In this document: positions 47,828-58,866 of the stretch, in pieces
How the letters are laid out: each line of letters starts with the position of its first letter
How positions within the stretch are numbered: the stretch's first letter is position 1
Source: Gammaproteobacteria bacterium
GTDB lineage: Bacteria; Pseudomonadota; Gammaproteobacteria; CAKMZV01
Direction of reading: 5' to 3'
Length of the DNA: 64,000 bases
Assembly: GCA_965277775.1 (NCBI GenBank)
Contig: OZ255843.1
Location: 455,451-519,450 of the forward strand
The notes under the pieces: model-generated
Told to the model about the DNA's origin: nothing
Database searches by the model: none
The model's input: only the letters and a program-made list of their open reading frames with translations
Translations under genes and position numbers: made by a program

Positions 47828-50800
47828 ATGTCAAAATCAAAAATGAATTTTTCCTTTGATGTAGGAATGGCCTCTCTTGGCGTGGCCGTTAATAGAGGCA
47901 ACAAAATCATCCACGCAGACGCCCTCTTAATTCACTTAGAAGCGGGCTCCATAAAAGATGCCGCAACCAAACGACGACAGTATCGTACCAGACAAGCACA
48001 CAAACAACGCGAACAAGTCTTAGAAGACTTTTGGAGAAGCATTGGTAAAGAACCACTGCAACGCAAAAAATTCGAGAAAACAACAAAAGGATTTAAAAAA
48101 ACACCCGCAGATCGACGCTTAGAACAAGAATTTCCCTACGCAGGCGATAACACCGCCTACGCCTCGTCATTGTTGAGAATCATGTTGCTTGAAGGCCACC
48201 CGCTTGAGGATTGGCAAATATACAAAGCACTGAGTGCGGCCATTCAACGTAAAGGCTATGACCACAACGTGCCTTGGAAAACAAAAGACGACGACACAGA
48301 TGTCAGCGACAAAGATTTAGATTTACGCGAAGCCTTTAGTGCATACATTCGTGATATGCCTGAACAATATCAATTACCTTGTTATTTTGATGCAGCAAGA
48401 ATGGGATTGTGGTGCGAAAAAACCAAAAAAATTATTTCTGTCAAACAAGGCTCAAAGAAACCCGAACGCGCCAGAGGCTATAAGGCCGATCGAAAACTGG
48501 TTGATAAAGAATTAAGATTACTCTTGGAAGCGGCGGCCAAGCGCATACCTGAAATGCGCCTTAGCACAGAAGCCATGAATCAACTCATCTATGGCAAAGC
48601 AGAGATCAAACCAACTTCTGACAAAAGATACCCCTCCTATTCGAAGATCACTGGGTTGTTGGGGCAAAAATACCCACGCTTTGAAAATCGTATCGTCAGT
48701 AAATGTGCTTTGATTCCCCGACTGAACGTCTGTAAATCTTCAAATAAGCGGGCCATTGAAGTTGGTTTTTTAATGAAGTTGTTGAATTTACGTTATGAAT
48801 TGTATGATGAATTCACAGGTGATAAACAAGAAAAAAGTCTGAACCATGAACAAATAAAGCAAATATTCCAAGAGCTTAAAACTCAGAAAACAAAAGATTT
48901 TGAACCCGAGTCCTATGCCCAAAGGCTCAAACTGACTAATACCCAACTCAAGAAAAGAATCCAAGCGTTCAGCGGAGAGACTGCTCGGATTAAAAGCGGG
49001 CACGAAACGATAGAAAAGATCAGTATAACAGGCCGAAGTCGTTTTAGCCAGCCGGCGCTATACTTACTCAAACATATGATTTTACAAGGTCTCATACCGC
49101 GAGACTTTCATGCAGACTGTATGAAGCGCATTGAAAATTGTACAGACTCAAATAAGTTTGGGCACAAAATATTTAAAAATGCAACTTATCGTTTTTTTAA
49201 AGAAGATTTTGAATGCCTGAAGCTAATGGATGACAAAATTTACACGCCATCCATGCCCGCCAAACACTCTGACGATGTTAACCAACAAGTCGTCAACATC
49301 ATAAGCTCGTGCAATTGGCCTGAATTACGCCATAGATTAAACGTATTTGATACTGAGTTGCAAAACCTCGTTGAACAATTTGGTCAACCAGAAAGCGTTA
49401 ATTTTGAATTTATTCGTGAAGATTTTCTAAGTCTGGAAAAGAAAACGCAGTATGAAAGCCAAAGCCAACAAGGCAGAGACGAACGAGAGGCGGCAAGAAT
49501 TTCTTTAGCAGAAGCCAACATTAAGACAAACGAGCAAAACATCTTACGCTATCGATTACTGATTGAACAGAAAGGGCAATGTCCCTACACTGGAGAGGCA
49601 TTGAGCATTGCCGCCTTAGAGCATTATGATATTGATCATGTATTTCCAACATCCCAAGGTGGCCCCGATGCCTACTACAACAAGGTATTAACAAGTCACG
49701 TCGTTAATCAGAAACAAAAAGCCGATAAATTACCTTGCGAATTCATAGAGAACTGGAATAGTTACACACAACGTATAGATACAATCTATAAAGATCCTAA
49801 GAATTCCAAGAGACATTTAAGAAAACAAAAACTCTTGAGTGCCACAAGCCGAGATGAAGCAGAGGAATTAATTGAAAAATACACGGGTCTATCAGGCACC
49901 TCGTACATTGCTCGATTGGCCAGAGACATAGTATGCGCACGCTTTGGCTGGATTCCTGGGGCGAAGGATGAAACACAGAAAGTGTTTATTTTCGGTGGTG
50001 GGCTGACCAGTAAAATTGCCAAAGACAATAGTCTTTATAAAGCTCTCTCCGAAGATAACGACCCGTGGAATAAACCACGCCATGATCATCGTCACCATGC
50101 ACTTGATGCTATGGTCATTAGCTATTTAAAAGAATGGGCGCGCGATGAAACGAAGGCTGATTTTTTTACCTTTCCAAAGGGCATTGATAGACACTATTTC
50201 AAAACCAAGCTCGATGAAGTATATCCTCATTACGTCAGCAGAAGGAAACCTGCCTTGAGCGAACAGCCAAAAAAAGGTAAAGACGTCAACCGCACGGAAT
50301 TTCGTAATATCAGCAAAGACCCTGAAGCCAAAGGGCAATGGCATACCAGTAAAACGGTTACTGGTGAGGGAACCTTTCAACACGGTCATTTGATCTACTT
50401 GGATCGAAAGGACAAGGTTCGGCGTACAGCAATTCACAGTTTCCGCTCTCGTTTTCAAGAAGAAAAAATAATACAGCGCGATGAAAATAATCGCATTATT
50501 GGCTTTATCCGCTCGAGTCACTCATTGCACATAAAAGAAAACCTTTTCAAGGCTGTATTATTCGGGGGAAGTATAGAGAAACTTCCTAAGGGAGAATATT
50601 CGATTGAGAAAATACAAAAAAAATGCATCATCGAACACAGTAAAAAAGGCGAGCGCTATAGGATTGATAAAGCCAAGCTTGAAAAACAGTGTATCAGAAA
50701 TAAATTATTGGCAGGGCAAGTTTTTGTATTGCAAGGCTTTCGCCTTGACAAAGCTACAGAAATATCGGGACAATTTCGATATTCTAATGACCACGATTGC

Positions 50801-51109
50801 TTCATAAATGAAGAAACTGATGAACAAGTCATTATAAAATTTGATCGCTTGGTTACTCACCTCCATAAAAATAATTGGCTCACCAGCGATGAGTTATCAA
50901 ATACCAAAATCGTTGAAATAAATACAGCTATTTCAGGTCATAAAGATGATAAGACAGTGAATAACCTACCCGCAGGTTATTATTTAATAAAGCAGTTCCA
51001 AGGCAATTATGTACACCTCAGATCTCAGCAGGGATTAGTCTATAAGTTGACGGTAAACATTTTAAATCCAATATTTAAAGATGAGCCACCATCTACTCCA
51101 TCTTCTTAG
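47828..51109 (+). CDS. cas9: CRISPR-associated endonuclease Cas9, type II-C-like (1093 aa)
   Basis: RuvC-I FSFDVGMASLGVAV; Arg-rich bridge helix KRRQYRTRQAHKQR; RuvC-II NFEFIRE; HNH HYDIDHVFPTSQGG...NKVLT...N; RuvC-III HDHRHHALDAMV; followed by cas1-cas2 and array. Confidence 0.9.
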   Translation: MSKSKMNFSFDVGMASLGVAVNRGNKIIHADALLIHLEAGSIKDAATKRRQYRTRQAHKQREQVLEDFWRSIGKEPLQRKKFEKTTKGFKKTPADRRLEQEFPYAGDNTAYASSLLRIMLLEGHPLEDWQIYKALSAAIQRKGYDHNVPWKTKDDDTDVSDKDLDLREAFSAYIRDMPEQYQLPCYFDAARMGLWCEKTKKIISVKQGSKKPERARGYKADRKLVDKELRLLLEAAAKRIPEMRLSTEAMNQLIYGKAEIKPTSDKRYPSYSKITGLLGQKYPRFENRIVSKCALIPRLNVCKSSNKRAIEVGFLMKLLNLRYELYDEFTGDKQEKSLNHEQIKQIFQELKTQKTKDFEPESYAQRLKLTNTQLKKRIQAFSGETARIKSGHETIEKISITGRSRFSQPALYLLKHMILQGLIPRDFHADCMKRIENCTDSNKFGHKIFKNATYRFFKEDFECLKLMDDKIYTPSMPAKHSDDVNQQVVNIISSCNWPELRHRLNVFDTELQNLVEQFGQPESVNFEFIREDFLSLEKKTQYESQSQQGRDEREAARISLAEANIKTNEQNILRYRLLIEQKGQCPYTGEALSIAALEHYDIDHVFPTSQGGPDAYYNKVLTSHVVNQKQKADKLPCEFIENWNSYTQRIDTIYKDPKNSKRHLRKQKLLSATSRDEAEELIEKYTGLSGTSYIARLARDIVCARFGWIPGAKDETQKVFIFGGGLTSKIAKDNSLYKALSEDNDPWNKPRHDHRHHALDAMVISYLKEWARDETKADFFTFPKGIDRHYFKTKLDEVYPHYVSRRKPALSEQPKKGKDVNRTEFRNISKDPEAKGQWHTSKTVTGEGTFQHGHLIYLDRKDKVRRTAIHSFRSRFQEEKIIQRDENNRIIGFIRSSHSLHIKENLFKAVLFGGSIEKLPKGEYSIEKIQKKCIIEHSKKGERYRIDKAKLEKQCIRNKLLAGQVFVLQGFRLDKATEISGQFRYSNDHDCFINEETDEQVIIKFDRLVTHLHKNNWLTSDELSNTKIVEINTAISGHKDDKTVNNLPAGYYLIKQFQGNYVHLRSQQGLVYKLTVNILNPIFKDEPPSTPSS

Positions 51110-51965
51110 CCCCAACATTTTCATTAATAAACAAAATGGGCTATTAAATTATGTGCGGGGAGATGAGCGCAGACAGTTGCCCCTTGAAGACATTCGTGGT
51201 GTCATCATTGCCACCAAAGGGGTCACACTAACCGATGCCATAATATCGGCATTGCTTGAAAATGGTGCATTTATACTGCACTGCAATGCCCAGTACCAAC
51301 CCATTGGATTGACCGAACCCACAGCCAAAATAGTGCGTCGTAAAGTGGCACAGTGTCAAGCCAAAGCGACTCAAAAGCTTTGTAAAGCGCTCTGGCAACG
51401 AATATTGCGCCAAAAAATCCAAAATCAAAGAAAAACGCTGAAATTCATTGGATGTTCCACCGATTATTTGGATAAGCAGTTAAATCAAAATAACTTGAAT
51501 GAATCGATCTGTGCTCGTCAATATTGGCGAGCCATGTTTATTGATTTGGGCTATGTTGGTTTAACGCGTCGTCACGACAATGAACATGATATTAATAAAA
51601 TGCTCAATTATGCTTATGCCGTCTTAGGTGCCATTTGTCATCGATCTATTGTCGCCCATGGTATGAGCCCATTGTTTGGCGTACACCACACCGCCAATTT
51701 TCACAATCATCCGTTGGTTTACGATTTAATCGAGCCATTTCGCCCCTTCATCGACAAACAATTGTGGTTATTTATAAAAAATGGGGATTCCAGTGTCGAT
51801 CTAAAAAATTGGTTGAATTTTTCCAAAAATTGTTGGCAAATGACCATTCATCACAATCAACGTCGTTTGCAATTAATTGATGCTGTGGATGTGGTTGTAC
51901 AAAAAATGGCCCAAGCTTTTCAAACTAAAGATGCTCAAGCGTTATGGCTTCCAGAAGTTCCATAA
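51081..51965 (+). CDS. cas1: CRISPR-associated endonuclease Cas1 (type II)
   Basis: RRQLPLEDIRGVIIATKGVTLTDAIISALLENGAFILHCNAQYQPIG closely resembles type II-C Cas1; overlaps cas9 3' end. Confidence 0.9.
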   Translation: MSHHLLHLLSPNIFINKQNGLLNYVRGDERRQLPLEDIRGVIIATKGVTLTDAIISALLENGAFILHCNAQYQPIGLTEPTAKIVRRKVAQCQAKATQKLCKALWQRILRQKIQNQRKTLKFIGCSTDYLDKQLNQNNLNESICARQYWRAMFIDLGYVGLTRRHDNEHDINKMLNYAYAVLGAICHRSIVAHGMSPLFGVHHTANFHNHPLVYDLIEPFRPFIDKQLWLFIKNGDSSVDLKNWLNFSKNCWQMTIHHNQRRLQLIDAVDVVVQKMAQAFQTKDAQALWLPEVP

Positions 51966-51967
51966 AA

Positions 51968-52291
51968 ATGGGCAGAATACTGGTACTGTTTGACCTACCG
52001 GTTAATACAGCGAAAGAGCGTAAAATTGCGTCAAAATTCCGAAAGGACATGCTTAACGATGGCTACATCATGCTCCAGTTCTCAGTCTATATGAGAACTT
52101 TTGTCTCGTGGGAGCGCATGAAAAAGCACGCCAAACGCCTCGCCCTTATGGCCCCCAATGGAGGCAACATAAGGATTTTTTTCATTACCGAAAAACAATG
52201 GCTTAAGTCCATAAGCATTGACGACATGGCGTATAAGCAAAAAAAGCAAATACGAACCCCACATCAATTGGATCTATTTACCATCTGGTAA
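51968..52291 (+). CDS. cas2: CRISPR-associated endoribonuclease Cas2
   Basis: MGRILVLFDLP...GYIMLQFSVYMR; ATG 51968 is 2 nt after cas1 stop; frame is open from 51944. Confidence 0.85.
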   Translation: MGRILVLFDLPVNTAKERKIASKFRKDMLNDGYIMLQFSVYMRTFVSWERMKKHAKRLALMAPNGGNIRIFFITEKQWLKSISIDDMAYKQKKQIRTPHQLDLFTIW

Positions 52292-52412
52292 CGAAGAGCA
52301 GTGCTTAGTAAGTTGTCGAATTAGTTAAGATCCCCATCTGCATATAGCTACGATCAACTTATTAGGGTGCTCAGAATTTGTTTAAATTATATATCCTATT
52401 AATTTTTTATGT
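52292..52412. promoter_or_regulatory. AT-rich cas2-array junction (possible leader)
   Basis: 121 bp AT-rich non-coding segment directly abutting first repeat. Confidence 0.35.
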
Positions 52413-55400
52413 ATTATACTCTGCTGGAAAAACGGGGGGGATCAAAACGGAAAACATTGCTACAAATGCAATTTCCGCATTATACTCTGCTGGAAAAACG
52501 GGGGGGATCAAAACATTTGGAATGAGTGGTTTAGAGATCAGAAATTATACTCTGCTGGAAAAACGGGGGGGATCAAAACCTAACTGACACCTTTTGTAAA
52601 ATGGTGGCAATTATACTCTGCTGGAAAAACGGGGGGGATCAAAACCCTACACCCGTGGGAAAAATCGATAAACTGATTATACTCTGCTGGAAAAACGGGG
52701 GGGATCAAAACCAGCGGGAAATGTCCAACACAGCTTTACAAATTATACTCTGCTGGAAAAACGGGGGGGATCAAAACTGCATTTTCGGTTATGATTTTCC
52801 AGACAAAATTATACTCTGCTGGAAAAACGGGGGGGATCAAAACCCGAATACCACCCTTGACCCGTGGCATTACATTATACTCTGCTGGAAAAACGGGGGG
52901 GATCAAAACGAACCACACAAGACAGCGGTTTAATGTGGCATTATACTCTGCTGGAAAAACGGGGGGGATCAAAACGTTTGGGGTGATCGAAAACGATCAC
53001 AATTAATTATACTCTGCTGGAAAAACGGGGGGGATCAAAACTGCTCGCTTAAATGAGCGAAGGTTGGCCAATTATACTCTGCTGGAAAAACGGGGGGGAT
53101 CAAAACAAACTGGTCAAAATATACAGTAAGTATGACATTATACTCTGCTGGAAAAACGGGGGGGATCAAAACCAGCGCGCGATCATGAGGCAGCTGGGCT
53201 CAATTATACTCTGCTGGAAAAACGGGGGGGATCAAAACGTCGTACTTGCTATATATTTTGACAAGTTTATTATACTCTGCTGGAAAAACGGGGGGGATCA
53301 AAACCAGACTGACACCTTTTGTAAAATGGTGGCAATTATACTCTGCTGGAAAAACGGGGGGGATCAAAACTACCGTTTGGTCTGGGATAATTTTGAGAAA
53401 TTATACTCTGCTGGAAAAACGGGGGGGATCAAAACAATTCAGAGAGGCGGTCGCCATGCAGCATTATTATACTCTGCTGGAAAAACGGGGGGGATCAAAA
53501 CTGGCATTACTCTATTAATTTCCCTTCTTTAATTATACTCTGCTGGAAAAACGGGGGGGATCAAAACTGGCCTACTCGGCTCAATGGGCGACGCGGAATT
53601 ATACTCTGCTGGAAAAACGGGGGGGATCAAAACCGAACCGTGCTATCAAACTCACCAGCCTTAATTATACTCTGCTGGAAAAACGGGGGGGATCAAAACC
53701 CGATCGACCAACTTGTTAATGTTGACTTATTATACTCTGCTGGAAAAACGGGGGGGATCAAAACCCAAACACGACCCTTGACCCTTGGCATTATATTATA
53801 CTCTGCTGGAAAAACGGGGGGGATCAAAACAGGTAAGGCCTCTTCAACAAAGACTGGCAATTATACTCTGCTGGAAAAACGGGGGGGATCAAAACAAATC
53901 CTTCGATTTTTCGTGGACAGTCAATATTATACTCTGCTGGAAAAACGGGGGGGATCAAAACTCGGTTCGCGCTTCAGCATATAAGTCAGCGATTATACTC
54001 TGCTGGAAAAACGGGGGGGATCAAAACCAGAGAGCTAATCCCCATTCAAGAAGCGATATTATACTCTGCTGGAAAAACGGGGGGGATCAAAACTACAAAG
54101 GAGAACAAAAGGTTACTCATCCGATTATACTCTGCTGGAAAAACGGGGGGGATCAAAACTAGCTCAGCGATTGGGAAAAGGGCATCATATTATACTCTGC
54201 TGGAAAAACGGGGGGGATCAAAACCTTCGAGTGTGGTTCTTTGGACTGCTTGTTATTATACTCTGCTGGAAAAACGGGGGGGATCAAAACATCAACAGTT
54301 ATTGTAAGTTCCTTTGAAGCATTATACTCTGCTGGAAAAACGGGGGGGATCAAAACCGAACTGTGATCAGCTCTGCCACGTTCAGATTATACTCTGCTGG
54401 AAAAACGGGGGGGATCAAAACTTCGTATGCATTTAATTACATTTCACCTAGATTATACTCTGCTGGAAAAACGGGGGGGATCAAAACATACGTGAATATA
54501 TGCCGATCTTTGAACTCATTATACTCTGCTGGAAAAACGGGGGGGATCAAAACAGATTTCGAGATTTCCTTCGATATTTGCAAATTATACTCTGCTGGAA
54601 AAACGGGGGGGATCAAAACAACCTGCAGACCATTAAAGACGAACCCCGCATTATACTCTGCTGGAAAAACGGGGGGGATCAAAACTTAAAATGGAACTGC
54701 ATATCCATTATGAGTATTATACTCTGCTGGAAAAACGGGGGGGATCAAAACGATAATAGGATTGACATTGATAGCTACTTGATTATACTCTGCTGGAAAA
54801 ACGGGGGGATCAAAACAGATACTGGACTTTTAGTTCCAGTCTTTGTATTATACTCTGCTGGAAAAACGGGGGGGATCAAAACATGGGTCAAACCTAAAAC
54901 CAACTGAACCAATTATACTCTGCTGGAAAAACGGGGGGGATCAAAACACCAGCACGCTGCTGGATTAGCTGGCATTGATTATACTCTGCTGGAAAAACGG
55001 GGGGGATCAAAACTGCGGGTTGATCTGGGTAAATACTTTCAATATTATACTCTGCTGGAAAAACGGGGGGGATCAAAACCCCCAAACCAGCTCCACTGAT
55101 TCCACGACTATTATACTCTGCTGGAAAAACGGGGGGGATCAAAACCCTATGACAAGTCTTGATAAATTTATTGAAATTATACTCTGCTGGAAAAACGGGG
55201 GGGATCAAAACGGACATTTAAAATTTATAATAAAAACGAAGATTATACTCTGCTGGAAAAACGGGGGGGATCAAAACAGATACTGGACTTTTAGTTCCAG
55301 TCTTTGTATTATACTCTGCTGGAAAAACGGGGGGGATCAAAACCGGCGAACCGCCCGATTATGTTAAAGCTTTATTATACTCTGCTGGAAAAACGGGGGG

Positions 55401-57111
55401 GATCAAAACCCCCAAACGAGTTCTACCGATTCGACGACTATTATACTCTGCTGGAAAAACGGGGGGGATCAAAACTATACACCTCCAGCAACAAAAACAA
55501 CCCTTATTATACTCTGCTGGAAAAACGGGGGGGATCAAAACCTTATTGAGCTCGGGATATTCCCAGATCCAATTATACTCTGCTGGAAAAACGGGGGGGA
55601 TCAAAACTGCGGTTTGATCCTTGACACGGCTGGTCACATTATACTCTGCTGGAAAAACGGGGGGGATCAAAACCATTGCTTTTGCGCTGAATTCCATCGG
55701 GCAATTATACTCTGCTGGAAAAACGGGGGGGATCAAAACTGCGGGCAGTATTTGCTATTTGGTGAGCGTATTATACTCTGCTGGAAAAACGGGGGGGATC
55801 AAAACCAGCACGCACACCATAATTGCATTACACACATTATACTCTGCTGGAAAAACGGGGGGGATCAAAACTATCGCTTGGTGTGGGACAATTTCGAGAA
55901 ATTATACTCTGCTGGAAAAACGGGGGGGATCAAAACGTATCTGTATCAGCACTATTTTTTATAAGATTATACTCTGCTGGAAAAACGGGGGGGATCAAAA
56001 CCATTGAGATGAGCGTAGCTGAATGGTCGAGATTATACTCTGCTGGAAAAACGGGGGGGATCAAAACTGATGATGAAGTTGCAAGACGTGCACGCGCATT
56101 ATACTCTGCTGGAAAAACGGGAGGGATCAAAACCGACGATGTCTCGTCGCCCAGGTATAGCGGATTATACTCTGCTGGAAAAACGGGGGGGATCAAAACC
56201 TGGCGATGTGTACCCCACCGATTACATTAATTATACTCTGCTGGAAAAACGGGGGGGATCAAAACTCGTACAATGGGCTTGAATATCCAACAGACATTAT
56301 ACTCTGCTGGAAAAACGGGGGGGATCAAAACGGATTGATCGGTGTCGATAAACGGGCGAAAATTATACTCTGCTGGAAAAACGGGGGGGATCAAAACCGG
56401 CCATACAGAATGAAAAAAACAAAAAGTATTATACTCTGCTGGAAAAACGGGGGGGATTATACTCTGCTGGAAAAACGGGGGGGATCAAAACGTATTACCA
56501 CCTAACGAAGCCCACTTGGATATTATACTCTGCTGGAAAAACGGGGGGGATCAAAACTGAATAAACAGACATAGTAACTCCTAATTAATTATACTCTGCT
56601 GGAAAAACGGGGGGGATCAAAACTAGGAGGTGCAAGAATGATAATGTCGTTGAATTATACTCTGCTGGAAAAACGGGGGGGATCAAAACTAGGAGGTGCA
56701 AGAATGATAATGTCGTTGAATTATACTCTGCTGGAAAAACGGGGGGGATCAAAACCTAATTCTTTGATTATGTATTTCCCTTCTATTATACTCTGCTGGA
56801 AAAACGGGGGGGATCAAAACGATGAAGGCGTTCTGATGAACAGTCACAGAATTATACTCTGCTGGAAAAACGGGGGGGATCAAAACTTATAATTTCTATT
56901 TCGTCGTCAACGTCCATTATACTCTGCTGGAAAAACGGGGGGGATCAAAACGAAACATTGCATTCTGACTTCGTTGGCTTTATTATACTCTGCTGGAAAA
57001 ACGGGGGGGATCAAAACTAAAACCCCGGTCAAAGACTGATCGGGGGGATTATACTCTGCTGGAAAAACGGGGGGGATTATACTCTGCTGGAAAAACGGGG
57101 GGGATCAAAAC
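52413..57111 (-). CRISPR. CRISPR array, ~71 x 36-bp repeat, spacers 29-31 bp; plus-strand repeat ATTATACTCTGCTGGAAAAACGGGGGGGATCAAAAC; canonical type II orientation is minus strand GTTTTGATCCCCCCCGTTTTTCCAGCAGAGTATAAT
   Basis: directly visible 66-bp periodicity over 4.7 kb; first repeat 52413-52448, last full repeat ends 57111; orientation inferred from GTTTTG...AAT form and the TATAAT at the repeat end. Confidence 0.97.
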
Positions 57112-57114
57112 TCC

Positions 57115-57303
57115 TTGGAGCAAACAGAACAAATTGAAGGGCATGAGGTCAAAGATTTTAGTGTGAGTGAAACGATGAAATATGATCATCTACCACAGAT
57201 TGATGTCGCCCACAAATGGGGGTTTGACGTTAGATTTTCGTTCATAGACAAACCTGATGTTCTTGGGAAGCTGTATCCTACTGATAAAAAAATATTTAAC
57301 TAA
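57115..57303 (+). CDS. hypothetical small protein
   Basis: 62-aa ORF immediately after array; coding status uncertain. Confidence 0.3.
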   Translation: MEQTEQIEGHEVKDFSVSETMKYDHLPQIDVAHKWGFDVRFSFIDKPDVLGKLYPTDKKIFN

Positions 57304-57364: not shown

Positions 57365-57619
57365 ATGCTTCTTAAAACGCCGAGCGAAAGTGAGATTGTT
57401 GCTGAATTTGGCGCAGCGGTCTTGAAAAGAATGCATATGGATAGCACTGATGAATACCTTAAAGAAAGTATCCATTATGTCGAATATCATGCAAGAAAAA
57501 CTGGGAAGGGTGCATATGAGGCCGCAACAGACCTTATACAGCGATCATTGTCTGCAATTGAATTGATTGACCAAACGGCTCAGGAAATTAAAAACAAGAC
57601 AAAGTCTTCTAAAGAATAG
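57365..57619 (+). CDS. hypothetical small protein
   Basis: 84-aa ORF, plausible composition. Confidence 0.35.
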   Translation: MLLKTPSESEIVAEFGAAVLKRMHMDSTDEYLKESIHYVEYHARKTGKGAYEAATDLIQRSLSAIELIDQTAQEIKNKTKSSKE

Positions 57620-57654: not shown

Positions 57655-58866
57655 ATGAGAAATTCAATTTTAGGTTTAATCGCTATATCAATTGCTATGA
57701 TGTTAAGTGGTTGCGGTTCTGCAAAAGATGATCCAATAATTCCAATCAGCACAAACACTCGTACCATTCAGACACAACAGGTTAATGAGGTCCGCAATGC
57801 AATGACAAATGTCGATGCAAGTCTGGTTGCATACCAGCGCGCAACCTCCGCATCAGATATACAGGCTCAAACAAACGCTTTAACACTAATGGCATCCAGC
57901 TTAGAGCAGCTCACAACAGCCGTGCGAGTAGCTCAACCATATTTAGATTACTCGTTATACAGAGCAGTTGCTGACCAGATGGGGAGGATCGATCAAGCGG
58001 GCATGCAAAACGTTCAGGTTATGGCTCAAATGGCGCAGGTAGAAATTATTACGGCAGTTGGTTTTTTAAGAACAAGCCGCGCACAGCTTCAAAGCACAAC
58101 AGATAGACTAAGTGTGCTCGATCGATCGATGGCTGCAACAAATGCTAGGTTAAACGTTATTGAGTCCGGCACAACCACATCAGTCGATAAAGTCAGGCTT
58201 TTAGTCCTTGCAGAAGTTGCCCGCTTAACAAGCTCTGATACAGCCATTCAGAACAGGATAACCACAGTGACCAACTCGCTCACAACGGCTATCGCTGATA
58301 ACACAAGGCTGATTGCTCAAAACTCATCGAACACCGCCGCCCAGTTGTTGAGCATAAATTCATCATTAACAAACATCATTGATCAAAACAATGCGCAAGG
58401 GCTCATAAATACATCAACAACCAGAGCGATTGAGGCAATGAGGGCAGTTATTGGTGAGCAGATAAGCCAAGAGGTGGCGAAACTACAAGCAAATATAAAT
58501 GCTAACCACAGCACATTAACAGCGCGAATTGATTTGTTGCAACAAGCAGTTGACGTGCTCCAAACAACAACAGTCATATCAATTGTCAGCAGTCTAAACG
58601 CCCATGTCATTACCCAAGGTGTTGTAAATAGCTCTTTAAGCTCATCAATCTTGAGCTTACAAACATCATTAACGAACTACATCGCATCATCAATTTTGTC
58701 ATTGTCTAACTCTTTATCAGCCACATCATCAACAGTCAATGCCCGGATTGATCAACTGCATTCAATTGTGGGGGCATTGCGAAATGAAGACTACCAGCTA
58801 GCTGTGCTAATAAGCAGTTTAACCAGTCGGGTGACTAGTAACTCAACCACCACCCAATCCAGATAA
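57655..58866 (+). CDS. lipoprotein with long alpha-helical Ser/Thr/Asn/Gln-rich repeat region
   Basis: lipobox MMLSGCGS; the C-terminal ~220 aa is ~90% identical to the N-terminus of the next ORF. Confidence 0.6.
   Translation: MRNSILGLIAISIAMMLSGCGSAKDDPIIPISTNTRTIQTQQVNEVRNAMTNVDASLVAYQRATSASDIQAQTNALTLMASSLEQLTTAVRVAQPYLDYSLYRAVADQMGRIDQAGMQNVQVMAQMAQVEIITAVGFLRTSRAQLQSTTDRLSVLDRSMAATNARLNVIESGTTTSVDKVRLLVLAEVARLTSSDTAIQNRITTVTNSLTTAIADNTRLIAQNSSNTAAQLLSINSSLTNIIDQNNAQGLINTSTTRAIEAMRAVIGEQISQEVAKLQANINANHSTLTARIDLLQQAVDVLQTTTVISIVSSLNAHVITQGVVNSSLSSSILSLQTSLTNYIASSILSLSNSLSATSSTVNARIDQLHSIVGALRNEDYQLAVLISSLTSRVTSNSTTTQSR

What the first reader, a model, noticed from the sequence alone, without database searches (positions are those of the whole stretch)
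52580..55900. Spacer pairs differing only at synonymous codon positions target the same protein-coding sequences in diverged mobile elements
At least three spacer pairs are near-duplicates, and their differences fall at third codon positions of one reading frame. The first pair is 52864-52893 against 53765-53794, both encoding PNTTLDPWHY. The second is 55080-55109 against 55410-55439, both encoding PQTSSTDSTT. The third is 53371-53399 against 55872-55900, both encoding YRLVWDNFE. A fourth pair, 52580-52609 against 53305-53334, differs by 2 nt at positions 2-3, changing Leu to Gln, in an otherwise identical LTDTFCKMVA stretch. This means the array has repeatedly sampled the same conserved genes from at least two related phage or plasmid lineages, with the same protospacers, presumably PAM-defined hot spots. 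It gives a direct handle on the invader and on the PAM.
Basis: seen in the sequence. Interest (0 to 1): 0.65.

Follow-up and report, generated by a model that had tools for sequence, protein, structure and literature searches.

The report
Twin CRISPR spacers against gokushovirus microviruses
A 70-spacer CRISPR array in an uncultured gammaproteobacterium holds pairs of near-identical spacers copied from the same spots in capsid and other genes of diverged small single-stranded-DNA phages (gokushoviruses); this is a clean example of an expected kind of infection record, not a new mechanism.

Summary
The array (52413-57111, 36-nt repeat, 70 spacers) contains the four reported pairs. It also holds a fifth pair in opposite orientation (sp11 and sp13) and two exact duplicates. 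One reported coordinate is wrong: 52864-52893 should be 52844-52873.

In four pairs, all 19 differences fall on third codon positions of one frame and none changes an amino acid (chance 7e-8). Shuffled spacers never exceed 20/30 matches.

The targets are Gokushovirinae (Microviridae).
- Pairs A, B and C lie in the major capsid protein VP1. YRLVWDNFE and PQTSSTDSTT occur verbatim in metagenomic VP1s, and PNTTLDPWHY aligns to the conserved C-terminal WHL motif.
- The flipped pair fits the N-terminus of ORF5, weakly.
- The Leu/Gln pair stays unmapped.
- At least 21 of 70 spacers look microviral. Spacer 2 matches VP1 DNA 29/29.

No nucleotide-level protospacer for any pair exists in the searchable collections, so the PAM is only tentative. 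Position 2 is a purine on the side expected if crRNA comes from the minus strand (15/16 sites, family-wise p about 0.04).

Six same-boundary collisions imply roughly 35-400 usable sites. That fits a 4.5-kb genome, a restrictive PAM, or acquisition hot spots.

This is a good example of a known phenomenon, of modest interest.

The parts
47828..51109 (+). cas9 (1093 aa)
   Evidence: Pfam HNH_4 and RuvC_III. NCBIfam NF049971 Cas9d scores 637 bits (cut-off 375) over residues 8-813; TIGR01865 scores 194 bits.
51081..51965 (+). cas1 (type II, NMENI-type)
   Evidence: TIGR03639 scores 165 bits, cut-off 120.
51944..52291 (+). cas2
   Evidence: TIGR01573 scores 66 bits.
52298..52370 (-). Conserved structured element between cas2 and the array; candidate tracrRNA. 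The block 52324-52335 (GTTAAGATCCCC on +) is complementary to the first 12-13 nt of the minus-sense repeat GTTTTGATCCCC.
   Evidence: Conserved in five related loci, with a stem of about 17 bp and 10 compensatory pairs. The strand is inferred, not shown. The window's own fold is unremarkable (z = 0.16).
52413..57111 (-). CRISPR array: 71 full and 2 truncated repeats, 70 spacers. crRNA is probably read from the minus strand, where the repeat is GTTTTGATCCCCCCCGTTTTTCCAGCAGAGTATAAT and ends in a -10-like TATAAT.
   Evidence: Relatives' repeats end in TGCTACAAT or TGTTAGAAT, like the repeat-embedded promoters of C. jejuni type II-C (PMC3656092).
52844..52873 (+). Spacer 7, pair A member 1 (PNTTLDPWHY; VP1 C-terminal region). 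The + strand is the coding sense of the target.
53765..53794 (+). Spacer 21, pair A member 2. It has 5 synonymous differences, at positions 3, 6, 9, 21 and 30.
53502..53531 (+). Spacer 17. It overlaps the last 9 nt of spacer 7 and extends the target to PNTTLDPWHYSINFPSL.
55476..55505 (+). Spacer 47 (YTPPATKTTL). It overlaps the start of spacer 21 (15 nt, 3 mismatches) and represents a third variant of the same VP1 region.
55080..55109 (+). Spacer 41, pair B member 1 (PQTSSTDSTT; VP1).
55410..55439 (+). Spacer 46, pair B member 2. It has 5 synonymous differences, at positions 9, 12, 15, 18 and 24.
53371..53399 (+). Spacer 15, pair C member 1 (YRLVWDNFE; VP1 aa 83-91 of L049).
55872..55900 (+). 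Spacer 53, pair C member 2. It has 5 synonymous differences, at positions 3, 6, 12, 18 and 24.
52580..52609 (+). Spacer 3, pair D member 1 (LTDTFCKMVA in frame +0). Target unknown.
   Evidence: No homologue was found.
53305..53334 (+). Spacer 14, pair D member 2 (CAG instead of CTA at positions 1-3). Target unknown.
53107..53136 (+). Spacer 11, pair E member 1 (KLVKIYSKYD; probably the N-terminus of gokushovirus ORF5).
53239..53268 (-). Spacer 13, pair E member 2. It covers the same 30 bp in the opposite orientation, with 4 synonymous differences. It is probably a flipped integration without a proper PAM.
52515..52543 (+). Spacer 2 (IWNEWFRDQ). It is the only spacer with exact DNA protospacers in public data.
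   Evidence: 29/29 match to Microviridae VP1 genes in MH572494 and PQ006352, and to 34 IMG/VR contigs.
54817..54846 (+). Spacer 37, identical to spacer 44 at 55278-55307 (DTGLLVPVF, VP1 aa 33-41). It overlaps the reverse complement of spacer 22 (53831-53859) by 13 nt.
56428..56455 (.). Truncated 28-nt repeat that abuts a full repeat directly. A second truncated repeat of the same form lies at 57048-57075.

Best explanation
The array belongs to a cas9-cas1-cas2 type II system of an uncultured gammaproteobacterium, and it has been loaded repeatedly from gokushoviruses (Microviridae, circular ssDNA genomes of about 4.5 kb).

Each near-duplicate pair is two independent acquisitions of the same 29-30-bp protospacer from two long-diverged virus lineages. 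These lineages encode the same amino acids at that site but differ at about half of the wobble positions.

The boundaries coincide for two reasons. The acquisition machinery measures the spacer from a fixed landmark, most likely a 3' PAM read by Cas9. And a 4.5-kb genome offers only tens to hundreds of favoured sites, so resampling is common.

Both members are kept because every pair differs within the PAM-proximal 13 nt, so neither guide should cover the other lineage.

Shown here: the pairs, their codon-phased synonymous differences, and homology to VP1.

Inferred: the ORF5 assignment for pair E, two or more lineages as the source, crRNA from the minus strand, a purine at PAM position 2, and the reason for the hot spots.
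For: **Pairs and phase.** 19 differences in 39 codons are all at third positions and all synonymous, P = 7e-8. Shuffled spacers reach at most 20/30 matches.

**Targets.**
- Spacer 2 matches Microviridae VP1 DNA 29/29.
- Translated spacers score above the shuffle null for 15 spacers.
- The peptides map collinearly on L049 VP1 at aa 33-47, 58-67, 83-91, 147-156, 359-366, 426-435 and 480-491. Others map to Rep, VP2 and ORF5.
- YRLVWDNFE is exact in L049. PQTSSTDSTT is exact in P0142/L061, whose DNA is a third synonymous variant, 21/30 to both spacers.
- Pair A scores 41 against L062 VP1.

**Natural control.** The 69 spacers of three related arrays show no microvirus signal and no near-duplicates.

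**No competing source.** There is no self-target and no microvirus gene elsewhere in the window, and no plasmid hit.

**Hot spots.** Six same-boundary collisions imply 35-400 effective sites. Uniform sampling of about 4500 sites is rejected at P < 2e-5.

**Orientation and PAM.**
- A purine sits at position 2 on one flank in 15/16 mapped sites. The exception is the flipped spacer 13. Family-wise p is 0.04.
- Published Cas9d PAMs are 3' NGG, NRC or NAR, and the seed is about 13 nt (PMC9755519).
- Repeats end in -10-like boxes on the minus strand, as in C. jejuni type II-C (PMC3656092).
Against: - No nucleotide-level protospacer of any pair was found in INPHARED, PLSDB, IMG/VR or the JGI metagenomes. 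The frames and flanks of the real targets are therefore inferred from homologues that are 60-80% identical at the DNA level.
- Pair D has no homologue at all and could come from another element.
- Pair E's assignment to ORF5 is weak on its own (score 30, p = 0.125). It rests on alignment with the start of the gene in relatives.
- The PAM signal is one degenerate position at family-wise p of 0.04.
- The crRNA strand and the tracrRNA are not shown experimentally. G.U evidence in the candidate tracrRNA stem is split between the strands.
Confidence: 0.85

Rival explanations
1. The pairs arose inside the array. One spacer-repeat unit was duplicated by recombination or slippage, and the copies then drifted apart by mutation.
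For: Exact duplicates do exist: sp65 = sp66 are adjacent, and sp37 = sp44 are 7 units apart. So some duplication or repeated identical acquisition occurs.
Against: - Drift in non-coding array DNA would not place 19 of 19 differences on one codon phase with 0 of 39 amino-acid changes (P = 7e-8).
- The flanking repeats are identical while the spacers differ by up to 17%.
- One pair is in inverted orientation.
- A third synonymous variant of pair B exists in a real virus.
Confidence: 0.02
2. The coincident boundaries come only from a restrictive PAM. The Cas9 recognises 2-4 specified bases, so a 4.5-kb genome has only tens to hundreds of legal protospacers and random draws collide.
For: - An effective site number of 35-400 equals 4.5-8 bits of PAM on 9 kb of double-stranded sequence, which is typical of Cas9 PAMs.
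- Related arrays that do not target microviruses show no collisions.
- The identical boundaries of the flipped pair fit a prespacer defined by one PAM.
Against: - Only one degenerate position (R at +2) could be detected across 16 sites.
- Published Cas9d PAMs are short, at 2 specified bases or fewer (PMC9755519). That would leave over 1000 sites and too few expected collisions.
- Flanks come from diverged homologues, so further PAM positions could be hidden.
Confidence: 0.4
3. The hot spots are set by something beyond the PAM. This could be intrinsic acquisition bias, or survival of only those spacers that lie in invariant protein motifs where the virus cannot escape by non-synonymous change.
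For: - Mapped spacers sit on the most conserved motifs: IWNEWFRDQN, PVFVDEALPGD and WPxxAHLGEQ in VP1, the Rep HUH region and TMSRRPGI, and QREMSNTAYQ in VP2.
- If the PAM is only NR, uniform sampling is rejected.
Against: - There is detection bias: only spacers in conserved motifs can be mapped through distant homologues.
- Selection for conserved regions does not by itself give identical 30-bp boundaries.
Confidence: 0.4
4. The paired spacers target a plasmid, a chromosomal island, or an integrated gokushovirus-like prophage of competing strains, rather than free phage.
For: Gokushovirus prophages are known in some bacteria (own knowledge). Pair D is unassigned.
Against: - There is no hit in PLSDB.
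- All assigned spacers fall in VP1, Rep, VP2 or ORF5 of 4-5-kb circular microvirus contigs.
- There is no such gene in the window.
- A prophage would still be a gokushovirus, so this changes little.
Confidence: 0.07

Closest known systems
CRISPR-targeted Microviridae in metagenomes (for example 766 CRISPR-targeted Microviridae genomes from human gut; PMC8530359)
   Same: Spacers of bacterial arrays match small circular Microviridae genomes, including the major capsid gene. Hosts include Proteobacteria.
   Different: Here the host is an uncultured 2-Mb gammaproteobacterium whose nearest Cas9 relatives include MAGs named as sponge-associated. At least 21 of 70 spacers of one array are microviral. 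The target lineage itself is absent from the public collections searched.
Repeated sampling of the same protospacer, and synonymous protospacer variation, in natural and experimental arrays (for example PMC5071653 and PMC4173771; acquisition-rate bias in type II-A is from my own knowledge)
   Same: Independent acquisitions can hit the identical protospacer. Phage variants differ from spacers by synonymous changes.
   Different: Here both variants are stored side by side in one array, five times over. The differences are purely wobble, and one twin is in flipped orientation.
Type II-C CRISPR-Cas of Campylobacter jejuni / Neisseria meningitidis (PMC3656092)
   Same: The gene set is the minimal cas9-cas1-cas2. 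Repeats are 36 nt with spacers of about 30 nt. Each repeat ends in a -10-like box (GAGTATAAT here, GGTAAAAT in C. jejuni; TGCTACAAT in relative L039). A candidate tracrRNA lies next to the array.
   Different: The Cas9 scores best against the NCBIfam Cas9d (type II-D) model, not against a II-C relative. Transcription from repeat promoters has not been shown here.
Type II-D / Cas9d systems (PMC9755519, PMC12669027)
   Same: Cas9 residues 8-813 match the Cas9d model at 637 bits. The inferred 3' PAM with a purine at position 2 agrees with the published NGG, NRC and NAR.
   Different: The protein is 1093 aa, so not compact. No cas4 was found, whereas the 2025 classification describes the II-D adaptation module as cas1-cas2-cas4. 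Cas1 is of the NMENI type.

Membership tests
CRISPR-Cas type II locus | Regular direct repeats separated by unique spacers of similar length | tested here: met
   71 full 36-nt repeats and 70 spacers of 29-30 nt.
CRISPR-Cas type II locus | Adjacent cas9 with HNH and RuvC domains, plus cas1 and cas2 | tested here: met
   Pfam and NCBIfam hits.
CRISPR-Cas type II locus | tracrRNA with an anti-repeat | tested here: inconclusive
   A conserved element between cas2 and the array carries a 12-13-nt block complementary to the repeat end, flanked by a stem with 10 compensatory pairs in 5 loci. Neither strand nor expression has been shown. There is no Rfam hit.
Subtype II-C | Only cas9-cas1-cas2, with no csn2 or cas4 | tested here: met
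   The neighbouring ORFs tested are COX3 or have no family hit. Not every ORF in the neighbourhood was scanned.
Subtype II-C | Cas9 belongs to the II-C clade | tested here: inconclusive
   The best NCBIfam model is Cas9d (637 bits), against 194 bits for generic Cas9. No phylogeny was made. PDB relatives match only the HNH region.
Subtype II-D (Cas9d) | Cas9 matches the Cas9d profile above its curated cut-off | tested here: met
   NF049971 scores 637 bits, cut-off 375, over residues 8-813.
Subtype II-D (Cas9d) | Adaptation module cas1-cas2-cas4 (PMC12669027) | tested here: not met
   cas1 and cas2 are present, but no cas4 was detected next to the locus.
Targets = Gokushovirinae (Microviridae) | Spacer-encoded peptides are homologous to VP1 (Pfam Phage_F), Rep, VP2 and ORF5 of 4-5-kb circular contigs | tested here: met
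.
Targets = Gokushovirinae (Microviridae) | Exact or near-exact DNA protospacer in a sequenced virus | tested here: inconclusive
   This is met for spacer 2 only (29/29). For the five pairs the best DNA matches are 21-24 of 29-30.
Independent acquisitions from diverged lineages (as against in-array duplication) | Differences confined to synonymous wobble positions of the target's reading frame | tested here: met
   19/19 differences in pairs A, B, C and E. The frame is confirmed by VP1 homology for A, B and C.
PAM-defined protospacer choice | A shared motif at a fixed distance on one flank of all protospacers | tested here: inconclusive
   Only a purine at position 2 emerged (15/16 sites, family-wise p = 0.04), and that from homologous rather than true flanks.

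The most novel reading that the evidence does not exclude
The same-boundary twins may not be random collisions. They could be products of guided re-acquisition ('spacer updating'). In this reading, Cas9 carrying an older crRNA binds the mismatched protospacer of a related or escaped gokushovirus without cleaving it, and hands exactly that PAM-anchored 30 bp to Cas1-Cas2. The array would then be refreshed at the same site, occasionally in flipped orientation.

The evidence does not exclude this. There are about 6 collisions among 21-70 spacers. That is far more than uniform use of NR-flanked sites predicts, and every twin differs in the presumed seed.
Probability: 0.06. Interest if true: 0.75.

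Novelty: new member of a known kind. Interest (0 to 1): 0.35.

Why it matters
- **Virus-host link.** The array links an uncultured, small-genome gammaproteobacterium to gokushoviruses. Its nearest Cas9 relatives include MAGs named as sponge-associated. At least 30% of its immune memory is aimed at them, by spacers concentrated at the cas2-proximal end. Virus-host links for Microviridae outside gut bacteria and a few cultured hosts are scarce.
- **Coexisting lineages.** The twins show that two or more lineages with saturated synonymous divergence but identical capsid motifs were met by one host lineage.
- **Natural data on a Cas9d-like system.** The twins give an internal estimate of how few protospacers are actually used. 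They also give a first, weak, natural PAM and seed reading for a Cas9d-like enzyme that has its own adaptation genes.

None of this changes current understanding of CRISPR adaptation.

Tried and rejected
**Searches for the real protospacers**
- All spacers by BLASTN against INPHARED phages: only spacer 2 hit.
- The pair sites alone at E <= 10: one chance hit.
- Unmapped spacers against PLSDB: nothing.
- Eight IMG/VR scans. Pair A codon-degenerate, pair D exact, pair D degenerate, and WHYSINFP all gave nothing. Pair E gave 5 unrelated large contigs. Pair C gave L049. Spacer 2 exact gave 34 contigs, none close at the other spacers. Relatives of L049 VP1 gave 5 distant ones.
- The single metagenome scan, with pair D: one unrelated 6.7-kb contig, judged a chance hit.

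**Protein searches**
- A concatenate of spacer peptides failed, because the word index found no candidate.
- A 63-aa N-terminal chimera returned only fragments.
- A pseudo-VP1 returned 120 VP1s at 62-66% identity. This confirmed pairs A and B but gave no close relative.

**Host lookup**
- Exact-protein look-ups of the window's Cas1, Cas9 and a 968-aa protein found no contig record.

**tracrRNA**
- Plain similarity and RNAduplex scans gave only background-level hits, including one inside a lipoprotein ORF at 57953-58011, which I rejected.
- Rfam gave nothing.
- The promoter and terminator scan was uninformative.

**Other rejected leads**
- An 8-nt overlap between spacer 9 and spacers 41/46 is chance: 0.3 such overlaps are expected, and the frames do not fit VP1.
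- Spacers of related arrays had no phage hits.
- A search for the JGI sample identity in the literature found nothing relevant.


Full report
**Anatomy.** Bases 52413-57111 are a CRISPR array. Exact parsing finds 73 repeat starts. Of these, 71 are full 36-nt copies of ATTATACTCTGCTGGAAAAACGGGGGGGATCAAAAC; one lacks a G and one has G>A. The other two are 28-nt truncated copies that abut the next repeat without a spacer (56428-56455 and 57048-57075). There are 70 spacers of 29-30 nt. Directly upstream lie cas9 (47828-51109, with HNH and RuvC domains), cas1 (51081-51965) and cas2 (51944-52291).

**The observation.** An all-against-all comparison of spacers in both orientations recovers the four reported pairs (28/30, 25/30, 25/30 and 24/29 identical). 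There are two exact duplicates, sp37 = sp44 and sp65 = sp66. Shuffled spacer sets never exceed 20 matches.

One reported coordinate is wrong. The first member of the first pair is 52844-52873, not 52864-52893. The other seven coordinates are right, and all peptides are as stated.

In pairs A (sp7/21), B (sp41/46), C (sp15/53) and E (sp11/rc13), all 19 differences fall at positions divisible by three, and none of 39 codons changes its amino acid. The chance that the differences of each pair share one phase is 7e-8 overall. Pair D (sp3/14) differs at positions 2-3 (Leu/Gln).

The reverse frame -1 shares the same wobble positions, and it is also open and synonymous for pairs B and E. The coding strand therefore needs outside evidence.

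**What the spacers target.**
- BLASTN of all spacers against 50,697 phage records hit only with spacer 2. It matches the major capsid gene (VP1) of Microviridae 29/29 in two records and 27-28/29 in many more. Thirty-four IMG/VR contigs of 4-8 kb carry it exactly.
- I translated every spacer in six frames and slid the peptides along 42-48 gokushovirus genomes. Fifteen spacers scored above the shuffle null (null 99th percentile 39, maximum 42). The 69 spacers of three related arrays gave one borderline score.
- The peptides fall collinearly on VP1 of contig L049, as listed below.

| Spacers | L049 VP1 residues |
|---|---|
| sp37/44 + rc sp22 | 33-47 |
| rc sp60 | 58-67 |
| pair C | 83-91 |
| sp2 | 147-156 |
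| pair B | 359-366 |
| rc sp10 | 426-435 |
| sp47 + pair A + sp17 | 480-491 |

- Others fall on Rep (sp6, sp57, sp58, rc sp8), VP2 (sp5) and ORF5 (pair E). The ORF5 and Rep assignments of the L049 ORFs come from Pfam.

Support for each pair:
- **Pair C.** Its peptide YRLVWDNFE is exact in L049.
- **Pair B.** Its peptide PQTSSTDSTT is exact in VP1 P0142. The DNA there, CCTCAAACCTCTTCAACAGATTCAACAACG, is 21/30 identical to both spacers, so it is a third synonymous variant.
- **Pair A.** It joins spacer 17 by a 9-nt overlap and spacer 47 by a 15-nt overlap. The merged peptide aligns with GNTTLDSWHLSQDFSAL in VP1 of L062 (score 41).
- **Pair E.** It resembles the first residues of ORF5 (MRLKIYTVYD and MKLKVYTLFD in relatives). 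Its score alone is not significant (p = 0.125).
- **Pair D.** It matches nothing.

In total, at least 21 of 70 spacers are microviral. Twelve of them lie among the first 22 units next to cas2 (Fisher p = 0.004).

**Limits of the target identification.** The best homologous sites are 21-24 of 29-30 identical. The true target lineage is thus unsampled. Frames are confirmed by protein homology, and flanks are known only from relatives or from overlapping spacers.

**Host and system.** The Cas9 is 87% identical to that of a 2.1-Mb gammaproteobacterial MAG (OZ255827.1), whose locus looks decayed. It is 47-48% identical to Cas9s of MAGs that include Candidatus Spongiihabitans. It scores 637 bits on NCBIfam's Cas9d (type II-D) model (cut-off 375). 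However, the locus has the II-C-like gene set cas9-cas1-cas2, without cas4 (PMC12669027).

The three related loci have the same layout and related repeats. Read on the minus strand, these end in TGCTACAAT, TGTTAGAAT or TGTTACACT. Here the ending is GAGTATAAT. These resemble the repeat-embedded -10 boxes that drive each crRNA in C. jejuni type II-C (PMC3656092).

Between cas2 and the first repeat, all five loci share an element. It has an invariant block complementary to the first 12-13 nt of the minus-sense repeat, enclosed by a stem with ten compensatory pairs. This is a candidate tracrRNA. Its strand is not settled, and the window's copy alone folds no better than shuffles.

**PAM.** For 16 mapped sites I collected the homologous flanks in the relatives. 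On the flank that would carry a 3' PAM if crRNA is minus-strand, position 2 is a purine in 15 of 16 sites. No other of 20 flank positions stands out. Simulation gives a family-wise p of 0.04.

The two flanks known from overlapping spacers agree (CGG for sp17, TGC for sp7/21). So does spacer 2 in 37 exact protospacers (NAR). Published Cas9d PAMs are 3' NGG, NRC or NAR (PMC9755519).

The single exception is spacer 13, the inverted twin of spacer 11. Spacer 11's PAM side would be CAT, the complement of the ORF5 start codon. Spacer 13's would be T/A-C-N in relatives. The simplest reading is that spacer 13 is a prespacer cut at the same PAM but integrated the wrong way round. That also explains its identical boundaries.

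**Why the same boundaries.** Six same-boundary collisions among 21-70 microviral spacers imply about 35-400 effectively used sites. If every NR-flanked position of a 4.5-kb genome (about 4500) were equally used, six collisions would have P < 2e-5. So either the real PAM is more specific than I could detect, or acquisition or retention is strongly biased. The data cannot separate these.

Related arrays that do not target microviruses show no twins. That fits the small-genome explanation.

In the inferred orientation, every twin differs at one to three positions within 13 nt of the PAM: A at 3, 6, 9; B at 9, 12; C at 3, 6, 12; D at 2, 3; E at 6. A characterised Cas9d tolerates no mismatch in that region (PMC9755519). 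Each lineage would therefore need its own spacer, which explains why both are kept. This step is inference.

**Rivals.**
- In-array duplication followed by drift is excluded by the codon phasing, by the inverted pair, and by the third natural variant.
- Mis-assembly of two strain variants is unlikely, because the twins are not collinear. Their unit offsets are 11, 14, 2, 38 and 5.
- A plasmid or cellular source is not supported.
- A guided 'updating' route is not excluded, but nothing requires it. About half of all wobble positions differ with no amino-acid change, so the twins' sources are long-separated lineages rather than fresh escape mutants.

**Comparison and verdict.** CRISPR targeting of Microviridae (PMC8530359), resampling of one protospacer (PMC5071653), and synonymous protospacer variation (PMC4173771) are all documented. 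This locus is a particularly clean natural example. It adds a host link for gokushoviruses, an internal estimate of protospacer usage, one apparent flipped spacer, and a tentative natural PAM for a Cas9d-like enzyme. It is a new member of a known kind, of modest interest.

Noticed in passing
window 47828-51109: The Cas9 scores far above the cut-off of NCBIfam's Cas9d (type II-D) model: 637 bits against 375, over residues 8-813. Yet it is 1093 aa and sits in a II-C-like cas9-cas1-cas2 locus without cas4. Its distant relatives (29-38% identity) are in Gracilibacteria, Peribacteria, Verrucomicrobiota, Spirochaetota and Gastranaerophilales.
   Followed up: partly
window 52298-52370 (and L037-L040 at the same place): A conserved structured RNA candidate lies between cas2 and the array. 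It has an invariant anti-repeat-like block (52324-52335), enclosed by a stem of about 17 bp with 10 compensatory pairs across five loci. It is probably the tracrRNA, possibly driven by the -10 box of the terminal repeat.
   Followed up: partly
window 53107-53136 and 53239-53268: Spacers 11 and 13 are the same 30-bp protospacer in opposite orientations, with four synonymous differences. Spacer 13 is the only mapped spacer without a purine at the inferred PAM position 2, so it looks like a naturally fixed flipped integration.
   Followed up: partly
window 56428-56455 and 57048-57075; 57018-57047: Two 28-nt truncated repeats, each lacking ATCAAAAC, are fused directly to a full repeat. The 'spacer' before the second one, TAAAACCCCGGTCAAAGACTGATCGGGGGG, reads on the minus strand as a GC hairpin followed by TTTTA. 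It is terminator-like rather than spacer-like.
   Followed up: no
window 52910-52939 (spacer 8): The reverse complement is 23/30 identical to the Rep HUH-motif region of L049. In the Rep frame, however, it reads P-H-stop-T-A-V-L-C-G, with TAA where relatives have Tyr and no second His. The source could be a defective genome, a mutated spacer, or a non-homologous similarity.
   Followed up: no
window 52449-53859 versus 53896-57047: Spacers assignable to gokushoviruses are concentrated next to cas2: 12 of the first 22 units against 9 of the remaining 48 (Fisher p = 0.004). This may reflect a recent burst of acquisition at that end, or older spacers may simply be less mappable.
   Followed up: partly
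L037 13200-15000 (OZ255827.1, closest relative): The homologous locus in the related 2.1-Mb MAG appears to be decaying. By eye, the cas1 and cas2 regions carry stop codons relative to the window, and only about six degenerate repeats remain.
   Followed up: no
window 57112-57303 and 57365-57619: Right after the last repeat, an open frame runs to a stop at about 57303 with no start of its own, as if the array end abuts a truncated gene. The next ORFs (84 aa, a 403-aa lipoprotein-like protein, and a 1332-aa protein) have no Pfam or NCBIfam family.
   Followed up: no
L061, L062, L063 and IMG/VR loci L003, L006, L007, L014, L015, L019, L021, L025, L032, L034: The nearest microvirus relatives, and many contigs carrying the exact spacer-2 protospacer, come from one series of JGI samples (3300020017 to 3300020047). 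Their habitat could not be determined here. They are the obvious place to look for the true target.
   Followed up: no
mapped spacers across the array: For 12 of 17 distinct mapped sites, the window + strand is the coding sense. A minus-strand crRNA would then be complementary to the packaged viral (+) strand and to mRNA. The bias is not significant (one-sided p about 0.07, my own arithmetic).
   Followed up: no
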